From: Candidatus Doudnabacteria bacterium RIFCSPHIGHO2_02_FULL_42_25
Lineage (GTDB): Bacteria; Patescibacteriota; Doudnabacteria; UBA920; O2-02-FULL-48-8
Direction of reading: 5' to 3'
Length of the DNA: 64,000 nt
Assembly (NCBI GenBank): GCA_001777665.1
Contig: MFEQ01000004.1
Coordinates: forward strand, 64,679 to 128,678
In this document: piece by piece, positions 2,861 to 63,245 of the stretch
Layout: every line of letters begins with the position of its first letter
How positions within the stretch are numbered: the first letter of the stretch is position 1
The notes under the pieces: model-generated
What the model saw: only the letters and a program-made list of their open reading frames with translations
What the model was told of the DNA's origin: nothing
The model's database searches: none
Position numbers and translations under genes: made by a program

Positions 2861-4298
2861 TATGAATCGCACGCTTATTAAAGATACAATCAACAAAACC
2901 GAGCAGGAAGTTTTAATTAAAGGCTGGGTCAACATCAGAAGAGATCATGGCAAATTGATTTTTTTGGATATCCGGGACCGATCTGGTTTGATTCAAGCCG
3001 TGATCAATCCTAAGGTTTCTGCTGAAGCGCATGCGGTTGCCTCTGAAATCCGCAACGAATATGTAGTCGAGCTGATCGGAAAAATCAATCCACGCGGCGA
3101 AAAACAAATAAATCTAGACCTCGAAACTGGAAAGATCGAAATCGAAGTTACAGGGCTAAAGATAATCAACGGTGCCAAGCCACTCCCCTTTGATATTACT
3201 TCAGACACGAGAACGGTTTCCGAAGAAATACGTCTAAAATACAGGTATTTGGATTTGAGAAATGAGCGAATGAAAAAAAATCTCAAGCTAAGACATAATG
3301 TCATCCAATTCATCAGAAATTATTTGATGGGACTTGATTTCACGGAAATCCAAACACCAATCCTTACTAAATCAACACCTGAAGGAGCAAGAGATTACCT
3401 AGTACCATCGAGGATTTATCCTGGTAATTTTTTTGCATTGCCTCAATCTCCACAACAATACAAACAGTTGTTAATGGTTGGTGGAATAGAACGATACTTT
3501 CAGATAGCTCCGTGTTTTCGTGATGAAGACGCCAGAGCCGATCGAAGTCCGGGAGAATTTTATCAACTCGATCTTGAAATGTCTTTTGTCGAACAGGAAG
3601 ATATTTTAGAGTTGACTGAAAAATTGTTTACCGATTTGGTAAAAACTCTTACTCCAGAAAAACATATAACTTTTTCTCCTTGGCCAAGAATTACCCACAA
3701 AGAAGCAAAAGCGAAATTCGGAAATGACAAACCAGATATGCGTAAAGATAAAAATGATCCGAATGAATTGGCTTTTTGTTGGGTTTTAGATTTTCCTCTT
3801 TTCACTGAACAAACCGAAGAAGATTTCTTTCACGGAGCAGGAGATAAATGGGGGCCTTCGCATCACATGTTTACTGCTCCCAAATCGGAAGATATTCCAT
3901 TACTAGATACAGATCCAGGAAAAGCTAGAGGGTTACAACACGATTTGGCTTTGAATGGTGTGGAAATTGGCGGAGGTAGCATCCGTATTCATGATCCAAA
4001 AATTCAGGAAAAGATTTTTGATTTGATTGGATTTACTAAAAAGCAGAAACAACGATTCAATCACATGCTAGAAGCTTTTGAATATGGCGTTCCCCCTCAT
4101 GGTGGCATAGCTCCAGGAATAGATCGATTAGTTAGAATTTTAGCAGGGGAAGAAAAAATTAGTGAGGTCATCGCTTTTCCTCTCTCTGGATCAGTTCGCG
4201 ACCCTATGATGGGTTCCCCTTCCGACGTGTCAGACAAACAACTCAAAGAATTACACATCAAAGTGGATTTACCAAAGGAGAAAAAAATAGATATTTAA
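2861..4298 (+). CDS. aspS: aspartyl-tRNA synthetase, short archaeal/eukaryal-type (likely non-discriminating)
   Basis: OB-fold N-terminal domain, class II motifs (QSPQQYKQLLMVGGIERYFQIAPCFRDED, GGGSIRIHD), about 479 aa without GAD insertion; start moved to ATG 2861 (track ORF starts at 2751 inside the convergent neighbour). Confidence 0.85.
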
Positions 4299-4300
4299 TT

Positions 4301-4424
4301 CCCCCTCTTAGAATAAGAGGGGGTTAGGGGGGAGTTAGATCTCAAGCGTTAAACAGCAGCTTAATCCTTAAAGGATATAACCCCTCCTAGCCTCCCCTTA
4401 ATATAAGGGGAGGAACAACAGCAT
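4301..4424. mobile_element. MITE-like palindromic element (family 1: CCCCTCTTAGAATAAGAGGGG ... CTCCCCTTAATATAAGGGGAG); miniature of the DUF559 element at 33796-34251
   Basis: Both hairpin ends match the inverted ends flanking the DUF559 ORF; same 120 bp unit present in reverse orientation at 55135-55252. Confidence 0.7.
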
Positions 4425-4442: not shown

Positions 4443-4511
4443 CCCATCTCGAACAGAGTGAGAGATCCCTCTTAAGAGCGATTTCTCGACTCGTTTCACT
4501 CGCTCGAAATG
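4443..4511. repeat. GC-rich hairpin repeat (family 2/3: CCCATCTCGAAC / GAGAGATCCCTC..GAGCGATTTCTC..CGAAATGG)
   Basis: Shares blocks with 56186-56240 and 62170-62193 and (reverse-complemented) 62604-62616. Confidence 0.6.
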
Positions 4512-14808: not shown

Positions 14809-14818
14809 GGAATCCTTT

Positions 14819-14838
14819 CCTGCCTGCCGGCAGGCAGG
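14819..14838. repeat. perfect 20-bp palindrome CCTGCCTGCCGGCAGGCAGG (copy 1)
   Basis: Identical palindrome at 29607-29626 and 32015-32034; variant at 35660-35679. Confidence 0.9.
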
Positions 14839-14905
14839 CGTTAATGATGTAAAAGGATTCTATCATTTCAGGCAATTTAGAGAATTGGTATTTAGTCCAA
14901 TGTGA

Positions 14906-22975: not shown

Positions 22976-22995
22976 TCTTGTGATCGCGAGTTTCC

Positions 22996-23070
22996 TACGA
23001 AATACGAATTGGTACGAAACTACGAACTGGGCTTAATTCTTTCGTATTTTCGTAGATTTTCGTAGTTCGG
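22996..23070. promoter_or_regulatory. TACGAA/TTCGTA iteron palindrome (copy 1) in mraZ 5' region
   Basis: 4 direct TACGAA repeats then 3-4 inverted TTCGTA repeats; same architecture at 31445-31524, 35119-35190, 61170-61264, 63134-63245. Confidence 0.7.
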
Positions 23071-23104
23071 AGAGAAAACTCCATTAATAGCTACAGGAAC
23101 CGAG

Positions 23105-29593: not shown

Positions 29594-29606
29594 ATTTTTT
29601 GTTCTC

Positions 29607-29626
29607 CCTGCCTGCCGGCAGGCAGG
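29607..29626. repeat. perfect 20-bp palindrome CCTGCCTGCCGGCAGGCAGG (copy 2), intercistronic
   Basis: Abuts stop codon of upstream gene, 13 nt before next ATG. Confidence 0.9.
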
Positions 29627-30169
29627 TTAGTACGCCTCGACCTTGGCGAAATTATTCAAAAAATTAATATTTGGAGTTTCAAATTTATAAGGCATCTCCA
29701 ACTCCAATTCATAAGTTGGTTCGGTATCTATAGAACCAATCTCTATTATTGCTCCCAAAACCTTTCCTTGTGTATCGTATGAAATCTGTTGTTGCCCCTC
29801 ATAACCCGATCTCACCTGGTCAGTTAAATGATTAATCGCGAGTGAGTAAGCTTCTATTGTTGGTTCGAAATCCTCGAATGGAATTGTTGCAACTTCAGTG
29901 AAGGCCAGATAGAATTGTTCATAAAAATCATTTTGCGCATCCCAAACGAAGGTAACCGTATCGACAACTCCCTGGGCTTGCTGATTCATATCAAGAATCG
30001 TAACTGCCTGCGCTACATCAGACTGCATTTGAGGAGTGAGGCCGGTGAAAAAAACAATTCCAACCACTACCACACCGACAAATCCCCAGGCAACTAATGA
30101 AGTCTCAAACCAATTTAAATTTTGATAATCTGTTTTCATAATATGCTTTTTGTTTTTGAAGATAATCAA
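29627..30169 (-). CDS. membrane-anchored protein, paralog family member 3
   Basis: TM, VVDTVTFVWDAQNDFYEQF motif. Confidence 0.45.
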   Translation of the reverse strand: MIIFKNKKHIMKTDYQNLNWFETSLVAWGFVGVVVVGIVFFTGLTPQMQSDVAQAVTILDMNQQAQGVVDTVTFVWDAQNDFYEQFYLAFTEVATIPFEDFEPTIEAYSLAINHLTDQVRSGYEGQQQISYDTQGKVLGAIIEIGSIDTEPTYELELEMPYKFETPNINFLNNFAKVEAY

Positions 30170-31444: not shown

Positions 31445-31524
31445 CTACGAACTTACGAAATTTTTACGAAAGTACGAAGAGCTAATTTTTTTCGTATTTT
31501 CGTACTTGTTCGTACTTTCGTAGC
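31445..31524. promoter_or_regulatory. TACGAA/TTCGTA iteron palindrome (copy 2), immediate rplJ leader
   Basis: Ends 10 nt upstream of rplJ ATG. Confidence 0.7.
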
Positions 31525-31936: not shown

Positions 31937-32014
31937 CTTCGCACCCCTGTGGATAACAGCTTAACATAAAAACCCCAGCTTTCGCCAGAGTCCCTTTTTA
32001 CTTATTACTTTTTA

Positions 32015-32034
32015 CCTGCCTGCCGGCAGGCAGG
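32015..32034. repeat. perfect 20-bp palindrome CCTGCCTGCCGGCAGGCAGG (copy 3)
   Basis: 7 nt after mltG stop; flanked by TTACTTATTAC motifs. Confidence 0.9.
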
Positions 32035-32041
32035 CTTATTA

Positions 32042-33677: not shown

Positions 33678-33795
33678 GTACCTAATATTCTTTTTTATTT
33701 TTGTTTCTTTAGTAAGACTCTCACCTTACATACATAGTATAGCAAATTTTCCGGATTTTGTAAATAGGTATGAGTAATTTCGCCCGCAGTTTTTC

Positions 33796-34251
33796 CCCTC
33801 CTAGAATAGGAGGGGCTAGGGGTGGTAGAACCTAAGGCAACTCACGAGAAATTTTTTCAATTACACCTTCAATACTTTCCCGAACCTCATCATTCGTAAA
33901 ACGAAGAAGTCGAATTTGATTAGATTCTAAAAAAACTTCTCTTCTCTTGTCATATTCGTTTCCTTTTGGATCTAGAAAATGTGAATCACCATCTACTTCA
34001 ATTCCTAACCTTAATTCATTACAATAAAAATCCAAAATATAATTACCAATTCCATATTGTCGTCTAAATTTATAACCTTTAAGGTTCTTACCTCTTAGAT
34101 AATACCAAAGAATCTGCTCTGCTTGAGGCATATTGTTCCTTAGTTGCTGTCTTCTGCTTTTATATTCTTTTTTGTTGTATAAATAATCCATACTTTATTC
34201 TACCTCACATTCTACCCCACCTAACCTCCCCTATTCTAGGGGAGGAACAAC
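33796..34251. mobile_element. small palindrome-ended element carrying a DUF559 nuclease gene (ends CCCCTCCTAGAATAGGAGGGG / CCTCCCCTATTCTAGGGGAGG)
   Basis: Inverted hairpin ends flank the ORF; MITE-like ORF-less derivatives at 4301-4424 and 55135-55252. Confidence 0.65.
33832..34191 (-). CDS. DUF559 (Vsr-like PD-(D/E)XK) endonuclease-domain protein
   Basis: LW..LR...GYKFRRQYGIGNYILDFYCNELRLGIEVDGDSH hallmark of DUF559. Confidence 0.8.
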   Translation of the reverse strand: MDYLYNKKEYKSRRQQLRNNMPQAEQILWYYLRGKNLKGYKFRRQYGIGNYILDFYCNELRLGIEVDGDSHFLDPKGNEYDKRREVFLESNQIRLLRFTNDEVRESIEGVIEKISRELP

Positions 34252-34317
34252 TGCAAGCTTTCGCAAAGGCGATTTCCGGGATGGTTAAAAAACGTTAATT
34301 AATTTTTCTTCAAAAAA

Positions 34318-35061: not shown

Positions 35062-35118
35062 TTTACCAATTCACCCCCTCTCATCCCCTCCCACCCCCAT
35101 TCTCGACCTTTAAGATAT

Positions 35119-35190
35119 CTACGAACTACGAATTTTTACGAATATACGAACTGGGGTTAACCCTTTTCGTAAATTCGTGTTTGTTCGTAA
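35119..35190. promoter_or_regulatory. TACGAA/TTCGTA iteron palindrome (copy 3) with GGGTTAACCC core
   Basis: 58 nt upstream of 35061 start. Confidence 0.7.
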
Positions 35191-35631: not shown

Positions 35632-35659
35632 GAACGTACCTTTCTTAATAAATTATTAA

Positions 35660-35679
35660 CCTGCCTACCGTCAGGCAGG
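35660..35679. repeat. 20-bp palindrome variant CCTGCCTACCGTCAGGCAGG (copy 4)
   Basis: In hup 5' region, next to a GC-rich island. Confidence 0.8.
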
Positions 35680-35769
35680 CAATCTGAAAACCAGTATAGC
35701 AAATCCTTAACAAATACGCTAGTTGCGGTCAAGGAATAAAAAAAGACCGCGGGTTTTAGTGACCGACGG

Positions 35770-49383: not shown

Positions 49384-49452
49384 CCCATCCCAGACGCCAC
49401 GAAGGGCGATCCGGGATCCACTTTATTGGACCCCGGATCAAGTCCGGGGTGG
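49384..49452. repeat. GC-rich hairpin repeat family 3 (ATCCCAGA..TCCGGGAT / ACCCCGGATCAAGTCCGGGGT)
   Basis: Two hairpins; the second is identical at 56330-56353. Confidence 0.7.
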
Positions 49453-54480: not shown

Positions 54481-54936
54481 TCAGCGCGGCTTGGTCGCGA
54501 TCAACTTCGCAGGATCATGCATGCGAGTGAACGTTCCAACGAACAGTTCAGAAAGCGGTTTCCCTCTATCTACTCGTTGCATTTCTTCTTCTAGTCTTTC
54601 GTAGCCCTCCTTCATGATTGCCTCGTGAGCTGCACTGTCCTCACCATTGTGACTCTGGGCTTTCTCGATCTCTCGTTTGATCTCAAAAACAAGCTCTTGT
54701 CTCCGCACATCCATTGTCTGAATAACACGACCACCGCCCAGCTTAACTTTCGCTAACGCTAGGTAGACGGCACGAATATGCTGACCCATTGGATCAGTAG
54801 ATCTCGGGTCAAAGCGCGGTACCTGGATCAGGCCCGATAACCCGTCACTCATTTCCTGCGACGCCAAGTACCAGCCGTTGCCCTCCGCTTGTTCATACGT
54901 TAACTTGATGATCTTACGGTCACTGCTGTTAACCAA
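54481..54936 (-). CDS. hypothetical protein in a GC-rich island
   Basis: TTG start with GAGGTGA SD; GC about 52%; no family. Confidence 0.4.
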   Translation of the reverse strand: MVNSSDRKIIKLTYEQAEGNGWYLASQEMSDGLSGLIQVPRFDPRSTDPMGQHIRAVYLALAKVKLGGGRVIQTMDVRRQELVFEIKREIEKAQSHNGEDSAAHEAIMKEGYERLEEEMQRVDRGKPLSELFVGTFTRMHDPAKLIATKPR

Positions 54937-55134
54937 GGGTTCACCTCAATTCAATCATAACAAATTAAATCCTGTGGATAACACAACGATGCCAAAAATT
55001 GAAAATAACCTCAAAGCAGAGCGCCGAGAAGTCAAAAAACGCCCCCGAATGAAAGTCCACGGAGCCTCTTTGAAACGGCCATCTAAATTTGCGGGTCTAA
55101 AAATTGTAAAGAAGAAAAGTTAACTTGATGTTGC

Positions 55135-55252
55135 CAGCAGTTGTTCCTCCCCTTAATATAAGGGGAGCTAGGAGGGGTTATCCTTAAGCGTTAAGCTGCT
55201 GTTTAACTCTTGGAATCAACTCCCCCTAACCCCCTCTTATTCTAAGAGGGGG
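55135..55252. mobile_element. MITE-like palindromic element (family 1), reverse-orientation copy of 4301-4424
   Basis: Near-identical block order in reverse complement. Confidence 0.7.
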
Positions 55253-55268
55253 AATTTACAGCAAACTT

Positions 55269-56201
55269 ATGTCTAACAAACTAATAGTAATTTTAGGCCC
55301 TACCACCTCGGGGAAATCATCACTCGCTATCAATCTCGCCCAAAAATTCAATGGCGAGATTATTTCTGCTGACTCCAGGCAAGTCTACAAAGGCATGGAT
55401 ATCGGCACTGGTAAAGTTACTAAAGCAGAACAAAAACTAATCAAACATTATCTTCTCGACGTCTCCTCCCCAAAAAAGCAATTCACTGTTTCGGATTTTA
55501 AGCGTCTTCTAATTTCAGCGATCGCTCAAATTAGAGGAAAAGACAAATTGCCTTTCTTAGTTGGTGGCTCGCCTTTTTATATTTATGCGGCCATAGATAA
55601 TCTACAAATTCCAGAAGTCACACCCAATCAAAAACTACGTAATCAACTACGTAGAAAAACTACTACCCAACTTTTTGCCATGCTTAAAAAACTTGACCCA
55701 GTTCGAGCAAAAAATATTGATAAAAATAATCCTCGGAGATTGATAAGAGCTATTGAAATAGTAAAAGCGACGGGAAAGCCGGTACCACCCCCACCTAACC
55801 TCCCCCTGGCAGGGGGAGGTGCCTTGATCATTGGGATCAAGAAGTCTCGTAAACAGCTCTACAAGCTTATCGATCAACGACTTGAGCAAAGACTCAATCA
55901 AGGAATGGTTAATGAAGTCAAAAAACTTCTGAAACAAAAAATCAGCCACAAACGGCTGCAAGAAATGGGATTAGAGTATCGCTTTATTTCTCTTTATCTG
56001 CAAGATCATCTCACCTATGAGCAAATGGTTGAACAATTGAAAAGCGCTATTCACAAATTCAGCAAACGCCAAATGACTTGGTTCCAAACCGACAAACGTA
56101 TCAAATGGATCTCTTCAGAAAAACAAGCAGAACGACTAATTAAGGACTATATAAAACCATCTCGACCCCGGACTACGATCCGGGGGAGAGATCCCTCCTG
56201 A
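55269..56201 (+). CDS. miaA: tRNA dimethylallyltransferase
   Basis: P-loop GPTTSGKSSLAINLA, DSRQVYKGMDIGT; carries two in-frame palindromic insertions (55789-55819 and 56166-56201). Confidence 0.85.
   Translation: MSNKLIVILGPTTSGKSSLAINLAQKFNGEIISADSRQVYKGMDIGTGKVTKAEQKLIKHYLLDVSSPKKQFTVSDFKRLLISAIAQIRGKDKLPFLVGGSPFYIYAAIDNLQIPEVTPNQKLRNQLRRKTTTQLFAMLKKLDPVRAKNIDKNNPRRLIRAIEIVKATGKPVPPPPNLPLAGGGALIIGIKKSRKQLYKLIDQRLEQRLNQGMVNEVKKLLKQKISHKRLQEMGLEYRFISLYLQDHLTYEQMVEQLKSAIHKFSKRQMTWFQTDKRIKWISSEKQAERLIKDYIKPSRPRTTIRGRDPS
55789..55819. repeat. family-1 hairpin CCCCACCTAACCTCCCCC-TGGCA-GGGGGAGG inserted in-frame in miaA
   Basis: Shares 17-mer CCCCACCTAACCTCCCC with element end 34215-34231; translated as PPPNLPLAGGGA. 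Confidence 0.7.
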
Positions 56202-56366
56202 GAGCGATTTCTCACTAATCGTTCGAAATGGGTAATCCCATCCCGGACGCTACAAGCGAAGCGCGGGCGATCCGGGATCCACTACACTAATTAATATCAA
56301 ATGATTCTTATTTGAAATGGACCCCGGATCGGCTTGATCGCCGGAGAGACGATCAAGTCCGGGGTG
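56166..56366. repeat. composite GC-rich hairpin repeat (family 2/3) overlapping the miaA 3' end
   Basis: CCCCGGA-CTACGA-TCCGGGG encodes the last miaA codons; GAGAGATCCCTC block; ATCCCGGA..TCCGGGAT; ACCCCGGATC..GATCAAGTCCGGGGT. Confidence 0.7.
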
Positions 56367-56706
56367 GATTATTTACAAAAATTCTTTCTACTGCTTTTGC
56401 TGAAATGAATCCAAGTATAATAAATAGCACTAAATCTAACCCTAGCGCTAAATAATTTTTTCTAATTATAGTGTCTTCACAATATGTTTTTTTAGTCACG
56501 TAAGATCCATTGGAAAACTCGAACGGCCAACCTATGGGACGTTGTAATCCAACGCCTACAGGATTACAGAGGGTGTACAGGTCACTCTTTCTTATCTGTC
56601 TTTCATTTTGCCCTAACGCTATCTGATAAGATTTGTCTCCGAATCGCATAGATAGAAATCCGAACAATAAAAGAGATAAAATTATACAAATAATCTTTAT
56701 TATCAT
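56353..56706 (-). CDS. small membrane protein, unknown
   Basis: 117 aa, 2 TM. Confidence 0.35.
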   Translation of the reverse strand: MIIKIICIILSLLLFGFLSMRFGDKSYQIALGQNERQIRKSDLYTLCNPVGVGLQRPIGWPFEFSNGSYVTKKTYCEDTIIRKNYLALGLDLVLFIILGFISAKAVERIFVNNPPRT

Positions 56707-56996
56707 TAAGTTCTTTTTATAGCTAACTTCCCAATAATTAATGCCGACACAAGAAAAACAGCTATATTAATTCCAAAGGAAATTATATTAATATAATCCA
56801 CTCCGCACATCGAATTATAGTAAAAATCAAAAGGCCAACCGTAGTAAACCCCACCAATCGCAGCACACGTAGGACCATAGAGCTCCTCTAAATAAAGAGT
56901 TCCAAATTGGAGATGGAATCTTATCGGAATTAACTGAATAAACGTAAAGGCTAAGATTAGTATTACTATAACAAATAATACTCGTAAACTCTTCAT
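56706..56996 (-). CDS. small membrane protein, unknown
   Basis: 96 aa, 2 TM. Confidence 0.35.
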   Translation of the reverse strand: MKSLRVLFVIVILILAFTFIQLIPIRFHLQFGTLYLEELYGPTCAAIGGVYYGWPFDFYYNSMCGVDYINIISFGINIAVFLVSALIIGKLAIKRT

Positions 56997-61169: not shown

Positions 61170-61264
61170 CTACGAAAGTACGAATTCTCGAATTACGAAC
61201 TGTTCGCCCGCCTGCCATGACGGCATGTCGGGCAGGTAGTTTCGCAATTTCGTATTTCGTAGAA
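61170..61264. promoter_or_regulatory. TACGAA/TTCGTA iteron palindrome (copy 4) with core CGCCCGCCTGCC..GGGCAGG, abutting htpX ATG
   Basis: Core is the reverse complement of the core in copy 5 (63151-63192). Confidence 0.7.
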
Positions 61265-61269
61265 ATACC

Positions 61270-62512: not shown

Positions 62513-62603
62513 TAATCGCCTGAACTTCAATTTACAGAGCCTGACTCGTTCGGCTCTTTCTTTTTTTAAAACATTAGCGAAAAATCACTTCTTAAGGCTC
62601 TGA

Positions 62604-62678
62604 AGAGGGATCTCTCCCCCGGATCGGAGTCCGGGGTCGAGATGGTTACCTATTTGGTCCGATCGTACAAATAGGTAA
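62604..62678. repeat. family-2/3 repeat (GAGGGATCTCTCCCCCGGATCGGAGTCCGGGG) plus hairpin TTACCTATTTG/CAAATAGGTAA
   Basis: Right flank of ppnP-like gene, abuts recX stop. Confidence 0.6.
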
Positions 62679-63105: not shown

Positions 63106-63133
63106 ATCTGCTATAATATTAGTATAGTACTGC

Positions 63134-63245
63134 CTACGAAAGTACGAAAGGATTACCTGCCCGACATGCCAGTCATGGCAGGCGGGCGAAAATACGAAAG
63201 GTTTTCACACATGTTCGTATTTCGAACAAATTCGTAGTTCGTAGA
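63134..63245. promoter_or_regulatory. TACGAA/TTCGTA iteron palindrome (copy 5) in the recX/clpC divergent region
   Basis: Inverted copy of 61170-61264 including the GC-rich core. Confidence 0.7.

What the first reader, a model, noticed from the sequence alone, without database searches (positions are those of the whole stretch)
55785..56201. Palindromic GC-rich elements inserted in-frame inside miaA (RPE-like behaviour)
Two members of the dispersed palindrome families lie inside the miaA reading frame without breaking it. The family-1 hairpin CCTCCCCC-TGGCA-GGGGGAGG sits at 55799-55819. It is preceded by the 17-mer CCCCACCTAACCTCCCC, which also marks the right end of the DUF559 element at 34215-34231. 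In miaA this region is translated as VPPPPNLPLAGGGA, in a linker after the conserved LIRAIEIVKATGKP block. The last nine codons and the stop of miaA (56166-56201) are encoded by the family-3 hairpin CCCCGGA-CTACGA-TCCGGGG, and the repeat continues for 165 bp past the stop. Selfish palindromic elements that insert in-frame into protein-coding genes are known from Rickettsia (RPEs) and a few other AT-rich genomes. I am not aware of this being described for a CPR-like genome.
Basis: partly seen in the sequence, partly recalled or inferred. Interest (0 to 1): 0.8.

Follow-up and report, generated by a model that had tools for sequence, protein, structure and literature searches.

The report
Palindromic repeats inside CPR miaA gene
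Pieces of hairpin-forming repeat DNA sit in-frame in two floppy parts of a tRNA-modification gene of a Candidatus Doudnabacteria genome, and relatives show that the same protein loop is repeatedly overwritten by different hairpin repeats, even between near-identical strains.

Summary
miaA (55269-56201, intact, 310 aa) contains a perfect 23-nt palindrome (55798-55820) preceded by a 17-mer that is identical to one end of a DUF559-gene element. Its last 15 codons and its stop come from a repeat unit (56155-56213) with a 94-98% identical intergenic copy at 62597-62647.

The "RPE-like in-frame insertion" reading is only partly right.

- **C-terminal tail:** it is a true lineage-specific extension; about 110 of 118 orthologs end at "...YLK".
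- **Internal element:** it is not a net indel. It replaces a disordered linker whose length is normal (14 vs 11-15 residues in close orthologs).

The main new result is that this linker carries a perfect hairpin in 10-12 of 14 Doudnabacteria loci. The hairpins belong to at least 5 unrelated families, including classical CGTC-type REPs. Their distribution on the MiaA tree is indistinguishable from random. Two miaA alleles that are 99.7% identical elsewhere carry different elements there.

The best explanation is selfish or neutral REP-like DNA tolerated in two unstructured segments, plus a landing-pad and ratchet effect at the linker. A selected hairpin function is not excluded.

In-frame palindromic repeats are a known kind (RPEs, intragenic REPs). 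This family and the hot spot appear undescribed for CPR.

The parts
55269..56201 (+). miaA (tRNA dimethylallyltransferase), intact 310-aa ORF that hosts both repeat pieces
   Evidence: ORF list. Pfam IPPT 4.7e-67. An identical protein, P0001, is named Cand. Doudnabacteria MiaA and is seen on 21 contigs. All invariant family columns are present. PDB MiaA homologs score down to 2e-56.
55786..55820 (+). Internal repeat-derived segment: box CCCCACCTAACCTCCCC (55789-55805) plus perfect palindrome ACCTCCCCCTG-G-CAGGGGGAGGT (55798-55820). It encodes PPPNLPLAGGG in the linker between the insertion domain and strand 185-190.
   Evidence: (D14). In the AlphaFold model residues 169-184 are coil and pLDDT is below 50 at 177-182.
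56155..56213 (+). 3' repeat unit that supplies codons 296-310 (KPSRPRTTIRGRDPS) and the TGA stop (56199-56201). It contains hairpin CCCCGGA-ctacga-TCCGGGG (56166-56185) nested in an outer ATCTC/GAGAT stem.
   Evidence: (I1, D12). Fold z -4.05. The tail is absent from orthologs.
56214..56370 (.). Mosaic of further REP-like modules between the convergent genes: ATCCCGGA...TCCGGGAT-CCA (56240-56283) and ACCCCGGA...TCCGGGGT (56321-56367).
   Evidence: 100% matches to 49404-49422 and 49436-49452. Fold z -5.68. Family scan.
56353..56706 (-). Convergent 117-aa ORF with no Pfam hit. Its last four codons (PPRT) and its stop lie in the 3' arm of the 56321-56367 hairpin.
   Evidence: No homolog was found in the 12 related loci, so its native end could not be checked.
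55137..55256 (.). About 120-bp doublet (REPIN/MITE-like) of the same family 1, lying 13 nt upstream of the miaA start. It is 88% identical (reverse complement) to 4297-4419.
   Evidence: (I4, I5, I7, I8). Three-hairpin fold, z -5.18.
33786..34254 (-). Reference element for family 1: a DUF559 gene (33838-34191) flanked by about 50-nt inverted ends (33786-33837 and 34203-34254). The right end carries the 17-mer.
   Evidence: I2, 79% complementary. Pfam DUF559 3e-32. Alignment of ends.
62597..62647 (-). Intergenic sister copy of the miaA 3' unit, lying downstream of the stop of a recX-like gene.

Best explanation
**What it is.** miaA here is a working tRNA isopentenyltransferase gene of a Candidatus Doudnabacteria (CPR) genome. 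It carries passenger DNA from the genome's own GC-rich palindromic repeats in the two places where the protein is unstructured.

1. **Internal piece.** One unit (box plus hairpin) of family 1 has overwritten most of the about 13-residue linker that joins the insertion domain back to the core. The same unit forms the inverted ends of a DUF559 endonuclease gene and of two about 120-bp doublets.
2. **3' piece.** A cluster of REP-like hairpins landed between the convergent miaA and its neighbour. It removed the native stop, so translation runs 14-15 codons into the repeat.

**Why it is tolerated (inferred).** Neither segment contacts the fold, so both are tolerated as neutral or nearly neutral selfish DNA. 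This is what has been described for Rickettsia RPEs and intragenic REPs.

**What the comparisons show.** The linker is a clade-wide landing pad. Different REP families replace one another there on a strain-level time scale.

**Mechanism of turnover (inferred).** Once a palindrome sits in the linker, two things follow. Its DNA cannot simply be deleted, because the linker needs its length; this is a ratchet. It also attracts further palindromic elements, or is recopied from ectopic copies (REP-into-palindrome targeting, template switching or gene conversion).

**Unknown.** The enzyme that moves family 1 is not known. The flanked DUF559 endonuclease is only a candidate.
For: **The gene is intact and the segments are repeat-derived**
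-.

**Both segments are disordered**
- Residues 169-184 are coil with pLDDT below 50 at 177-182, and the tail after helix 284-295 is coil.
- The tail is absent from orthologs.

**Repeats are mainly intergenic**
- Of 17 GC-rich perfect hairpins in the window, 11 are scored intergenic, 1 overlaps the edge of an ORF and 5 lie inside called ORFs. Two of those five are in miaA. One of the others sits upstream of the likely true dnaE start, and one lies in a doubtful 99-aa ORF.

**Hot spot at the linker**
- The linker holds a perfect hairpin (stem of 8 or more) in 10 of 14 Doudnabacteria loci. Imperfect or long palindromes occur in L165 and L168 and a loopless 6-bp-arm palindrome in L171; only L164 and L167 lack a clear hairpin.
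- The density is 1.3e-2 per nt, against 2.5e-4 in the interior of coding regions and 1.8e-3 in intergenic DNA (Poisson P 2e-14 and 2e-6).
- The hairpins belong to at least 5 unrelated families.

**Turnover**
- Element class shows no detectable phylogenetic signal on the MiaA tree: 34 Fitch changes against 35 for shuffled labels, and 20 changes among 36 hairpin-bearing taxa.
- L168 and L169 differ by 2 substitutions over the first ~890 aligned miaA columns outside the linker and by 1 in 352 nt upstream. They carry different elements in the linker and differ in the last ~35 nt.
- P0040 and P0043 are 91% identical and carry different elements.

**Hairpin DNA does not evolve like coding DNA**
- Identical codons occur in 4/5 hairpin positions against 3/33 flanking positions (P 0.002), and in 6/8 against 12/39 (P 0.027).

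**General niche behaviour**
- The sites upstream of miaA and at its 3' end also hold varied hairpins across loci.
- L162 prmC carries two in-frame REPs.
- In other CPR lineages the same linker holds a stem of 8 or more in 10 of 146 loci, about 1.1e-3 per nt by my own division over a ~60-nt linker. That is close to the intergenic density.

**Literature**
- REPs are reported to insert into palindromes and to occur inside genes, possibly in flexible linkers (PMC3733652).
Against: - A purely neutral permissive-loop model predicts at most the intergenic density, but Doudnabacteria linkers exceed it about 7-fold.
- In most loci the linker's hairpin family is absent from the surrounding +-10 kb. The linker is therefore not just sampling a dense local repeat population.
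- No target-site duplication is visible, and the miaA copy lacks the outer tip of the element end. Classical transposition is therefore not shown.
- Linker length is preserved in many independent cases. This needs either compensating deletions or a copy-over mechanism, and neither has been observed directly.
- Nothing here shows that the protein is made or active.
- The hot-spot statistics treat related loci as independent.
Confidence: 0.65

Rival explanations
1. The hairpin in the miaA linker is a selected nucleic-acid structure. It could be an mRNA hairpin that modulates translation or decay at the domain boundary, or a DNA site for a recombination or nucleoid protein. The palindromic repeats would merely be the raw material that keeps supplying it.
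For: - Occupancy in Doudnabacteria is 7-fold above the intergenic density.
- Stem codons are invariant at synonymous sites across species that are about 70% identical, while loops vary.
- The family is often unique to the linker within +-10 kb.
- Occupancy preserves linker length, including 13-14-bp stems in normal-length linkers of other CPR lineages (L039, L052, L092).
- The same IRAN palindrome sits at the same site in Colwellbacteria and Doudnabacteria.
Against: - The close orthologs L164 and L167 have no hairpin, and 82 of 118 orthologs show no recognisable hairpin peptide.
- There is no common stem or loop sequence, size or exact position. Elements range from 12-nt loopless palindromes to 68-nt ones.
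- No T-run or terminator-like signal is present, and there is no Rfam match.
- Decayed remnants exist (P0017, P0033, L167).
- Neighbouring intergenic niches show the same family diversity.
Confidence: 0.17
2. The repeat sequences arrived by ectopic copying rather than by insertion of a mobile unit. This could be template switching or short-patch gene conversion during repair of a break or a stalled fork at a resident palindrome, which would overwrite the linker without transposition.
For: - The result is replacement rather than net insertion.
- The miaA copy is only the inner 31-35 nt of an about 50-nt end.
- No target-site duplication is visible at the copies read.
- In the L168/L169 swap both elements begin with the same GTCATCCTGA at the same place.
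- Other length-preserving palindromes lie inside structured parts of miaA. Examples are LRSMLRS = TACGTAGCATGCTACGTA in L168, and window 55635-55654 and 55508-55535.
Against: - The L168/L169 swap also includes a 7-nt indel upstream of the shared tag, so it is not a simple homologous patch.
- Elements of 32-39-residue linkers (P0052, P0095, P0118) look like added units.
- No donor copy is available for any ortholog.
Confidence: 0.3
3. Nothing special is present: the linker sequence is native and resembles the repeat by chance, or miaA is a pseudogene or mis-called frame.
For: - The native linker is proline-rich (PVPxL...), so C-rich DNA is expected there.
- The fold z-score of the internal hairpin alone is only -1.69.
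Against: - A 17/17 match plus the adjacent family hairpin has 0.01 expected matches.
- The 3' unit matches its sister copy with E 3e-16.
- The Pfam match is full-length, all invariant residues are present, and the identical protein is seen on 21 contigs from several sources.
Confidence: 0.02

Closest known systems
Rickettsia palindromic elements (RPEs; Ogata et al. 2000, 2002, as summarised in PMC10969869)
   Same: Both are dispersed palindromic repeats read through in-frame inside conserved housekeeping genes without inactivating them, and located where the fold tolerates extra residues.
   Different: - RPE-1-type elements are about 100-150 bp and add a peptide. The internal piece here is about 33 nt and replaces a linker of normal length.
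- This family is associated with a DUF559 gene.
- The genome is CPR, not an intracellular alphaproteobacterium.
- Recurrent replacement of one site by unrelated families is not, to my knowledge, described for RPEs.
CGTC- and GTAG-tagged REPs, including intragenic REPs (Di Nocera et al. 2013, PMC3733652). According to that paper, CGTC-1 corresponds to Neisseria dRS3 and R. conorii RPE-6.
   Same: - The elements in the orthologs' linkers fit the CGTC description feature by feature. L163 reads TGTC-ATTCCCGC-GAAA-GCGGGAAT-CCA, and L169 reads CGTC-ATCCTGAA-CTTGT-TTCAGGAT-CCA.
- That paper already reports REPs inside genes, at COOH termini, close to convergent ORF ends and inside other palindromes. 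It suggests that they sit in flexible linkers.
   Different: - The window's own internal hairpin lacks the tag, the AT-starting stem and the CCA tail.
- The paper does not cover CPR.
- As far as I read it, the paper does not describe one orthologous coding site being cycled through different families.
REPINs and REPtrons (REP doublets mobilised by RAYT tyrosine transposases; Bertels & Rainey 2011, PMC3116915)
   Same: The architecture is similar. A gene is flanked by inverted hairpin units (33786-34254), gene-less doublets of the same units lie at 4297-4422 and 55137-55256, and a singlet sits in miaA.
   Different: The flanked gene is a DUF559 (Vsr-like PD-(D/E)XK endonuclease), not a RAYT. 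There is no GTAG tag. Mobility is not shown.
MITEs that make in-frame fusions (ERIC, Correia, QMITE1 and others; PMC10969869, PMC2229807)
   Same: Both are small non-coding repeats with inverted ends, and both sometimes overlap gene ends and alter termini.
   Different: No target-site duplication is visible and no known transposase partner is present. The miaA pieces are single hairpin units, not whole elements.

Membership tests
MiaA / IPPT (host gene) | Pfam IPPT domain above the gathering score over most of the protein | tested here: met
   226.6 bits against a cut-off of 23.6, residues 38-274.
MiaA / IPPT (host gene) | P-loop GPTxxGKS, the DSRQVY motif and the other family-invariant residues are present, and the protein is homologous to solved MiaA structures | tested here: met
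   The invariant columns of 36 orthologs are all present in the window protein. Matches: 2qgn 2e-56, 3d3q 5e-51, 2zm5 1e-43.
RPE-like in-frame palindromic repeat (as a kind) | Member of a multi-copy palindromic repeat family in the same genome | tested here: met
   Family 1: 4381, 34215, 55149 (rc) and 55789. 3' unit: 56155, 62597 (rc) and 4450.
RPE-like in-frame palindromic repeat (as a kind) | Lies inside a conserved ORF and is read through without frameshift or stop | tested here: met
RPE-like in-frame palindromic repeat (as a kind) | Appears as a lineage-specific insertion (extra residues) relative to orthologs | tested here: inconclusive
   The C-terminal tail meets this: it adds 13-15 residues that are absent from about 110 of 118 orthologs. 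The internal element does not: the linker is 14 residues against 11-15 in close orthologs, so this is replacement.
RPE-like in-frame palindromic repeat (as a kind) | Located in a surface or disordered part of the protein | tested here: met
   AlphaFold model: residues 169-184 are coil, pLDDT is below 50 at 177-182, and the tail 296-310 is coil. This is a prediction only.
Rickettsia RPE-1 to RPE-10 (sequence families) | Sequence similarity to an RPE consensus | not tested
   No RPE consensus sequences were available in the tools. PMC3733652 equates RPE-6 and RPE-4 with CGTC-1 and CGTC-4, and the window's elements do not fit those (see next rows).
CGTC-tagged REP (Di Nocera 2013) | CGTC/TGTC/CCTC tag at one end, 8-9-bp stem starting with AT, 4-5-nt loop, and an unpaired tail that is mostly CCA | tested here: not met
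   Window internal hairpin: CTAA-CCTCCCCC-TGGCA-GGGGGAGG-TGC. It has no tag, no AT start and no CCA tail. The 3' hairpin CGAC-CCCGGA... also fails. By contrast L163, L170, L081, L169 and L162 meet all four features.
CGTC-tagged REP (Di Nocera 2013) | The same features, applied to the downstream module 56240-56283 | tested here: inconclusive
   The module reads ATCCCGGA...TCCGGGAT-CCA. The AT-starting 8-bp stem and the CCA tail are present, but the loop is 27 nt and the upstream tag reads TCCC.
GTAG REP / REPIN with RAYT | GTAG tetranucleotide at one end of the unit | tested here: not met
   No GTAG is seen at the ends of any of the five aligned family-1 units.
GTAG REP / REPIN with RAYT | Inverted doublets of the unit (REPIN architecture) | tested here: met
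   4297-4422 and 55137-55256 each consist of two inverted units. The central boxes pair and are flanked by two local hairpins.
GTAG REP / REPIN with RAYT | A RAYT (Y1/HUH transposase) gene flanked by the units | not tested
   The ORFs of the window were not scanned systematically for Y1 transposases. The only gene seen flanked by the units is a DUF559.
MITE | Terminal inverted repeats, small size, no ORF, several copies | tested here: met
   The ends are about 79-88% complementary or identical. There are two about 120-bp gene-less copies and one gene-bearing copy in 64 kb.
MITE | Target-site duplications and a parent element encoding a known transposase | tested here: inconclusive
   No direct repeat flanks the copies read (checked by eye only). 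The parent-like element encodes DUF559, which is not a known transposase.

The most novel reading that the evidence does not exclude
The MiaA linker of Doudnabacteria, and to a lesser extent of other CPR lineages, is a dedicated exchange site at which hairpin elements are actively and site-specifically swapped. This would be the first natural before/after evidence that CGTC-type REPs, which have no known transposase, are still mobile. Family 1 would be mobilised by the DUF559 endonuclease that its units flank, giving a REPtron-like system built on a PD-(D/E)XK nuclease instead of a RAYT. Alternatively, the hairpin itself is kept by selection as an intragenic regulatory structure.
Probability: 0.15. 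Interest if true: 0.8.

Novelty: new member of a known kind. Interest (0 to 1): 0.5.

Why it matters
In-frame palindromic repeats are textbook oddities of Rickettsia. Finding the same behaviour in an ultra-small CPR genome shows it is not tied to intracellular alphaproteobacteria.

More usefully, the MiaA linker offers a natural experiment. It is one orthologous coding site, easy to find in any metagenome, where unrelated REP families replace one another between alleles that are otherwise 99.7% identical.

That gives exact junctions for asking two questions:
- how REPs without a known transposase move;
- whether palindromes attract palindromes.

It also flags a candidate new partner enzyme, DUF559.

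There is a practical warning as well. Repeat-encoded peptides (SFPRKRESS, RHPELVSGS, VILSGAKDL...) inside real proteins can mislead annotation, alignment and phylogeny of CPR genes.

Tried and rejected
- **Collection scans.** Only L001 and L081 exceeded 60% identity. They served as an outgroup census rather than for close comparison.
- **Close orthologs.** These had to be fetched one by one (cap exhausted). P0010 returned no DNA.
- **Downstream small ORFs.** tblastn of the two small ORFs against 12 related loci found nothing. I therefore could not test whether the convergent ORF's C-terminus is also repeat-derived by comparison.
- **Rfam.** A scan of 54800-56800 gave only sub-threshold chance hits.
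- **Terminators and promoters.** The scan found no terminator-like site at either hairpin. I dropped the idea of an internal or bidirectional terminator.
- **tRNA mimicry.** I considered that the linker hairpins mimic the tRNA anticodon arm for autoregulation. I rejected this because loops differ (GAAA, CTTGT, TGGCA, none) and no A36-A37-A38-like loop is shared.
- **Allelic recombination for the L168/L169 difference.** I considered recombination from a divergent donor. I rejected it because the flanks are identical right up to the element.
- **Is miaA as a whole hairpin-rich?** It has 4 against 1.0 expected, P 0.02, the top of 48 ORFs. This is not significant after correcting for 48 tests.
- **Gene-wide histogram outside Doudnabacteria.** The linker enrichment is mild: 6 of 35 stable hairpins fall in 2 of 31 bins.
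- **First parsimony script.** It timed out and was rerun with faster distances.
Full report
**1. What is at the coordinates**

The ORF 55269-56201 (+) encodes a 310-aa protein.
- It has a full-length IPPT domain (Pfam 4.7e-67, residues 38-274).
- It is homologous to solved MiaA structures (2qgn 2e-56, 3d3q aligned to residue 296).
- An identical protein in the public collection is named MiaA of a Candidatus Doudnabacteria bacterium and occurs on 21 contigs from several sources. It is therefore not an assembly accident.
- All columns that are invariant in 36 orthologs are present.
- Synteny dnaE-thrS-miaA-(small convergent ORFs)-gatB is conserved in relatives.

**2. The observation**

*Internal element.*
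It is in fact a perfect 23-nt palindrome at 55798-55820.
- The 17-mer at 55789-55805 is identical to 34215-34231, with 0.01 matches expected by chance.
- I aligned it with the two ends of the DUF559 element and with the ends of the two about 120-bp doublets (4297-4422 and 55137-55256). The miaA copy shares the box plus hairpin and then diverges. It lacks the outer AACAACTGC.

*3' end.*
- The repeat unit starts at 56155 inside codon K296, not at 56166.
- It is 94-98% identical to the reverse complement of 62597-62647, which lies downstream of another gene's stop.
- Fifteen codons and the stop are therefore repeat-derived.
- Beyond the stop, a mosaic of further modules runs to about 56367 and matches 4460-4487, 49404-49422 and 49436-49452.
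- The last four codons and the stop of the convergent ORF 56353-56706 lie in the last hairpin.

*Distribution in the window.*
- There are 17 GC-rich perfect hairpins (stem of 7 or more). Eleven are scored intergenic, one overlaps an ORF edge and five fall inside called ORFs, although ORFs cover 88% of the DNA.
- Apart from one upstream of the real dnaE start and one in a doubtful 99-aa ORF, the only intragenic ones are the two in miaA.

**3. Is it an insertion?**

*C-terminal tail: yes.* About 110 of 118 orthologs end within three residues of "...YLK". None has PSRPRTTIRGRDPS.

*Internal element: not as a net indel.*
- Between TGKP and LILGI the window has 14 residues.
- Hairpin-free close orthologs have 11 (L164, L167) and hairpin-bearing ones have 12-15.
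- The broader Parcubacteria consensus PVPxLKKxPLPYPV has 13.
- About 11 of the window's 14 codons are repeat-derived, so about 8 native codons were replaced.

*Structure.* An AlphaFold model (mean pLDDT 85.8) puts residues 169-184 in coil between helix 155-168 and strand 185-190. pLDDT is below 50 at 177-182, and the tail after helix 284-295 is also coil.

**4. What the relatives show**

*DNA of 13 other Doudnabacteria miaA genes.* This linker is almost always a palindrome, but of different families:

| Element | Peptide | Loci |
|---|---|---|
| ATCCTGAA(C)-loop-(G)TTCAGGAT | RHPELVSGS | L161, L162, L166, L169, L001 |
| ATTCCCGC-GAAA-GCGGGAAT | SFPRKRESS | L163, L170, L081 |
| ATTCGnGCGAAT | IRAN | L165, L171 |
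| about 68-nt palindrome | VILSGAKDL...PQND | L168 |
| window element | PPPNLPLAGGG | window |

- The first two families match the published definition of CGTC-tagged REPs feature by feature: CGTC/TGTC tag, 8-9-bp stem starting with AT, 4-5-nt loop and CCA tail (PMC3733652).
- That paper equates CGTC-1 with Neisseria dRS3 and Rickettsia RPE-6.

*The 118 orthologous proteins.*
- 36 carry recognisable hairpin-encoded peptides of six classes.
- The classes are scattered on the tree as if at random. There are 34 parsimony changes against 35 for shuffled labels, and 20 changes among the 36 hairpin-bearing taxa where 5 would suffice. This is stable over 10 bootstrap trees.

*Near-identical pairs.*
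- L168 and L169 differ by two substitutions over the first ~890 aligned miaA columns outside the linker and by one in 352 nt upstream. One has the 68-nt palindrome in the linker and the other has the short CGTC REP. They also differ in the last about 35 nt of the gene, where L169 has the palindrome GTACGTACCTACGTACGTAC (peptide VRTYVRT).
- P0040 and P0043 (91% identical) carry SFPRKRES and IRAN respectively.

**5. Statistics**

- Across the 14 loci the linker holds 10 perfect hairpins (stem of 8 or more) in 768 nt. The rate is 2.5e-4 per nt inside large ORFs and 1.8e-3 per nt in non-ORF DNA. The Poisson P values are 2e-14 and 2e-6, with related loci treated as independent.
- Codons inside the hairpins are identical across species far more often than flanking codons with conserved amino acids: 4/5 against 3/33 (P 0.002) and 6/8 against 12/39 (P 0.027). 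The hairpin DNA is therefore either recently and independently acquired from conserved repeat pools, or held at the nucleic-acid level.
- In most loci the linker's family is not found elsewhere within +-10 kb.
- Outside Doudnabacteria, 10 of 146 CPR miaA genes have a stem of 8 or more in the linker, some with 13-14-bp stems in linkers of normal length. The same IRAN palindrome occurs in a Colwellbacteria gene.
- Over the whole gene, the linker is the top bin for stable hairpins and the 3' end is second.
- The sites just upstream of the start codon and around the stop also carry varied hairpins in different loci.
- prmC of L162 carries two in-frame REPs.

**6. Interpretation**

*Shown.*
- The two segments are repeat-derived and in-frame, and they lie in predicted disordered parts of an otherwise conserved enzyme.
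- The tail is an extension and the linker element is a replacement.
- The linker and the 3' end are sites of rapid, recurrent turnover of palindromic elements in this clade.

*Inferred.*
- These are passenger (selfish or neutral) elements of the REP/RPE kind.
- The high occupancy of the linker has two likely causes. One is a ratchet: linker length is needed, so repeat DNA that replaced native codons cannot be deleted. The other is a preference of palindromic elements for existing palindromes, which PMC3733652 reports for several REP families.

*Unresolved.*
- It is not clear whether arrival is by mobilisation of a unit or by ectopic copying or template switching.
- The partial unit, the lack of visible target duplications and the length-preserving palindromes elsewhere in miaA keep the copying model alive. 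Those palindromes are at 55508-55535 and 55635-55654, and LRSMLRS = TACGTAGCATGCTACGTA in L168.
- A selected function for the hairpin is not excluded. Against it are the hairpin-free orthologs, the decayed remnants, the absence of any shared sequence, size or loop, the lack of terminator or Rfam signals, and the similar behaviour of neighbouring intergenic niches.

**7. Comparison with known systems**

- The element works like Rickettsia RPEs and like the intragenic REPs of Di Nocera et al. (PMC3733652, PMC10969869).
- The window's own elements are not members of the CGTC or GTAG REP families, because the defining tag, stem and tail features are not met.
- Family 1 has a REPIN/REPtron-like layout, with doublets and a gene flanked by inverted units. 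The gene is a DUF559 endonuclease (Pfam 3e-32), not a RAYT.
- A 38%-identical DUF559 homolog in another CPR genome (L062) is likewise flanked by inverted CTCCCTTT-aagaa-AGGGAG hairpins. This is a lead, not a result.

**8. Novelty and score**

- In-frame palindromic repeats are a known kind.
- The held literature contains nothing on REPs in Patescibacteria/CPR and nothing linking DUF559 to such repeats.
- The finding as written is an ordinary new instance in a new clade, with one part (a net internal insertion) not borne out.
- The clade-wide hot spot with strain-level swaps is the more interesting outcome. It could make REP mobility testable.
- Interest 0.5.

Noticed in passing
window 33786-34254; also L062 18530-19120: A DUF559 (Vsr-like endonuclease) gene is flanked by about 50-nt inverted ends, each made of a box plus a CCCCTCC/GGAGGGG-type hairpin. 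Gene-less doublets of the same ends lie at 4297-4422 and 55137-55256. A 38%-identical DUF559 gene in another CPR genome is also flanked by inverted hairpins. This may be a REPtron-like unit built on a PD-(D/E)XK nuclease.
   Followed up: partly
window 54878-55123 (likely true start near 54986); L163 9858-9995, L165 9840-10004, L168 56-220, L169 9704-9868: A small basic ORF (about 45-54 aa, ...KRPRMKVHGASLKRPSKFAGLKIVKKKS) is conserved just upstream of miaA in several Doudnabacteria. The 54-aa copy in L168/L169 has no Pfam hit recorded in the gene tables.
   Followed up: no
window 56353-56370: The convergent 117-aa ORF downstream of miaA takes its last four codons (PPRT) and its TGA stop from the arm of the REP-like hairpin 56321-56367. 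One repeat cluster therefore supplies the stops of both convergent genes.
   Followed up: partly
window 55508-55535, 55635-55654, 55823-55841: Three further palindromes lie inside structured parts of miaA with no length change. The first is a 28-nt palindrome with one mismatch per arm in helix 74-90. The second is CTACGTA-atcaac-TACGTAG, encoding KLRNQLRR; L168 has the perfect TACGTAGCATGCTACGTA, encoding LRSMLRS, at the same place. The third is CTTGATC-attgg-GATCAAG, encoding LIIGIK.
   Followed up: partly
L169 10865-10900; proteins P0009, P0017, P0019, P0026, P0032, P0056: Six MiaA orthologs from different branches end in ...VRTYVRT(K). In L169 this is encoded by the palindrome GTACGTAC-ctac-GTACGTAC. 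The 3' end of miaA is thus a second recurrent palindrome site.
   Followed up: partly
L162 759-823: prmC of another Doudnabacteria genome carries two adjacent REPs in-frame about 170-210 nt before its stop: ATTCCCGC-gaaa-GCGGGAAT and ATCCCGGA-tcaag-TCCGGGAT.
   Followed up: no
window 14816-14839, 29604-29627, 32012-32035, 35657-35680: A separate intergenic palindrome family, CCTGCCTG-ccgg-CAGGCAGG, has four copies.
   Followed up: no
window 22995-23073, 31459-31517, 35118-35166, 61234-61266, 63129-63245: Clusters of short TACGAA/TTCGTA repeats occur in direct and inverted order at five places. Their nature is unknown.
   Followed up: no
window 55782-55796 (residues 172-176): The repeat-derived sequence creates a PPPP run (V-P-P-P-P-N) in MiaA. 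By general knowledge this kind of motif needs EF-P for efficient translation. This is inference only.
   Followed up: no
L167, L162, L165, L163 ftsW/rodA genes, about 47-50 nt from the 5' end: A CAGCAGCA...TGCTGCTG hairpin recurs at the same position near the start of the FtsW/RodA gene in four Doudnabacteria loci. It probably follows from a conserved peptide, but I did not examine it.
   Followed up: no
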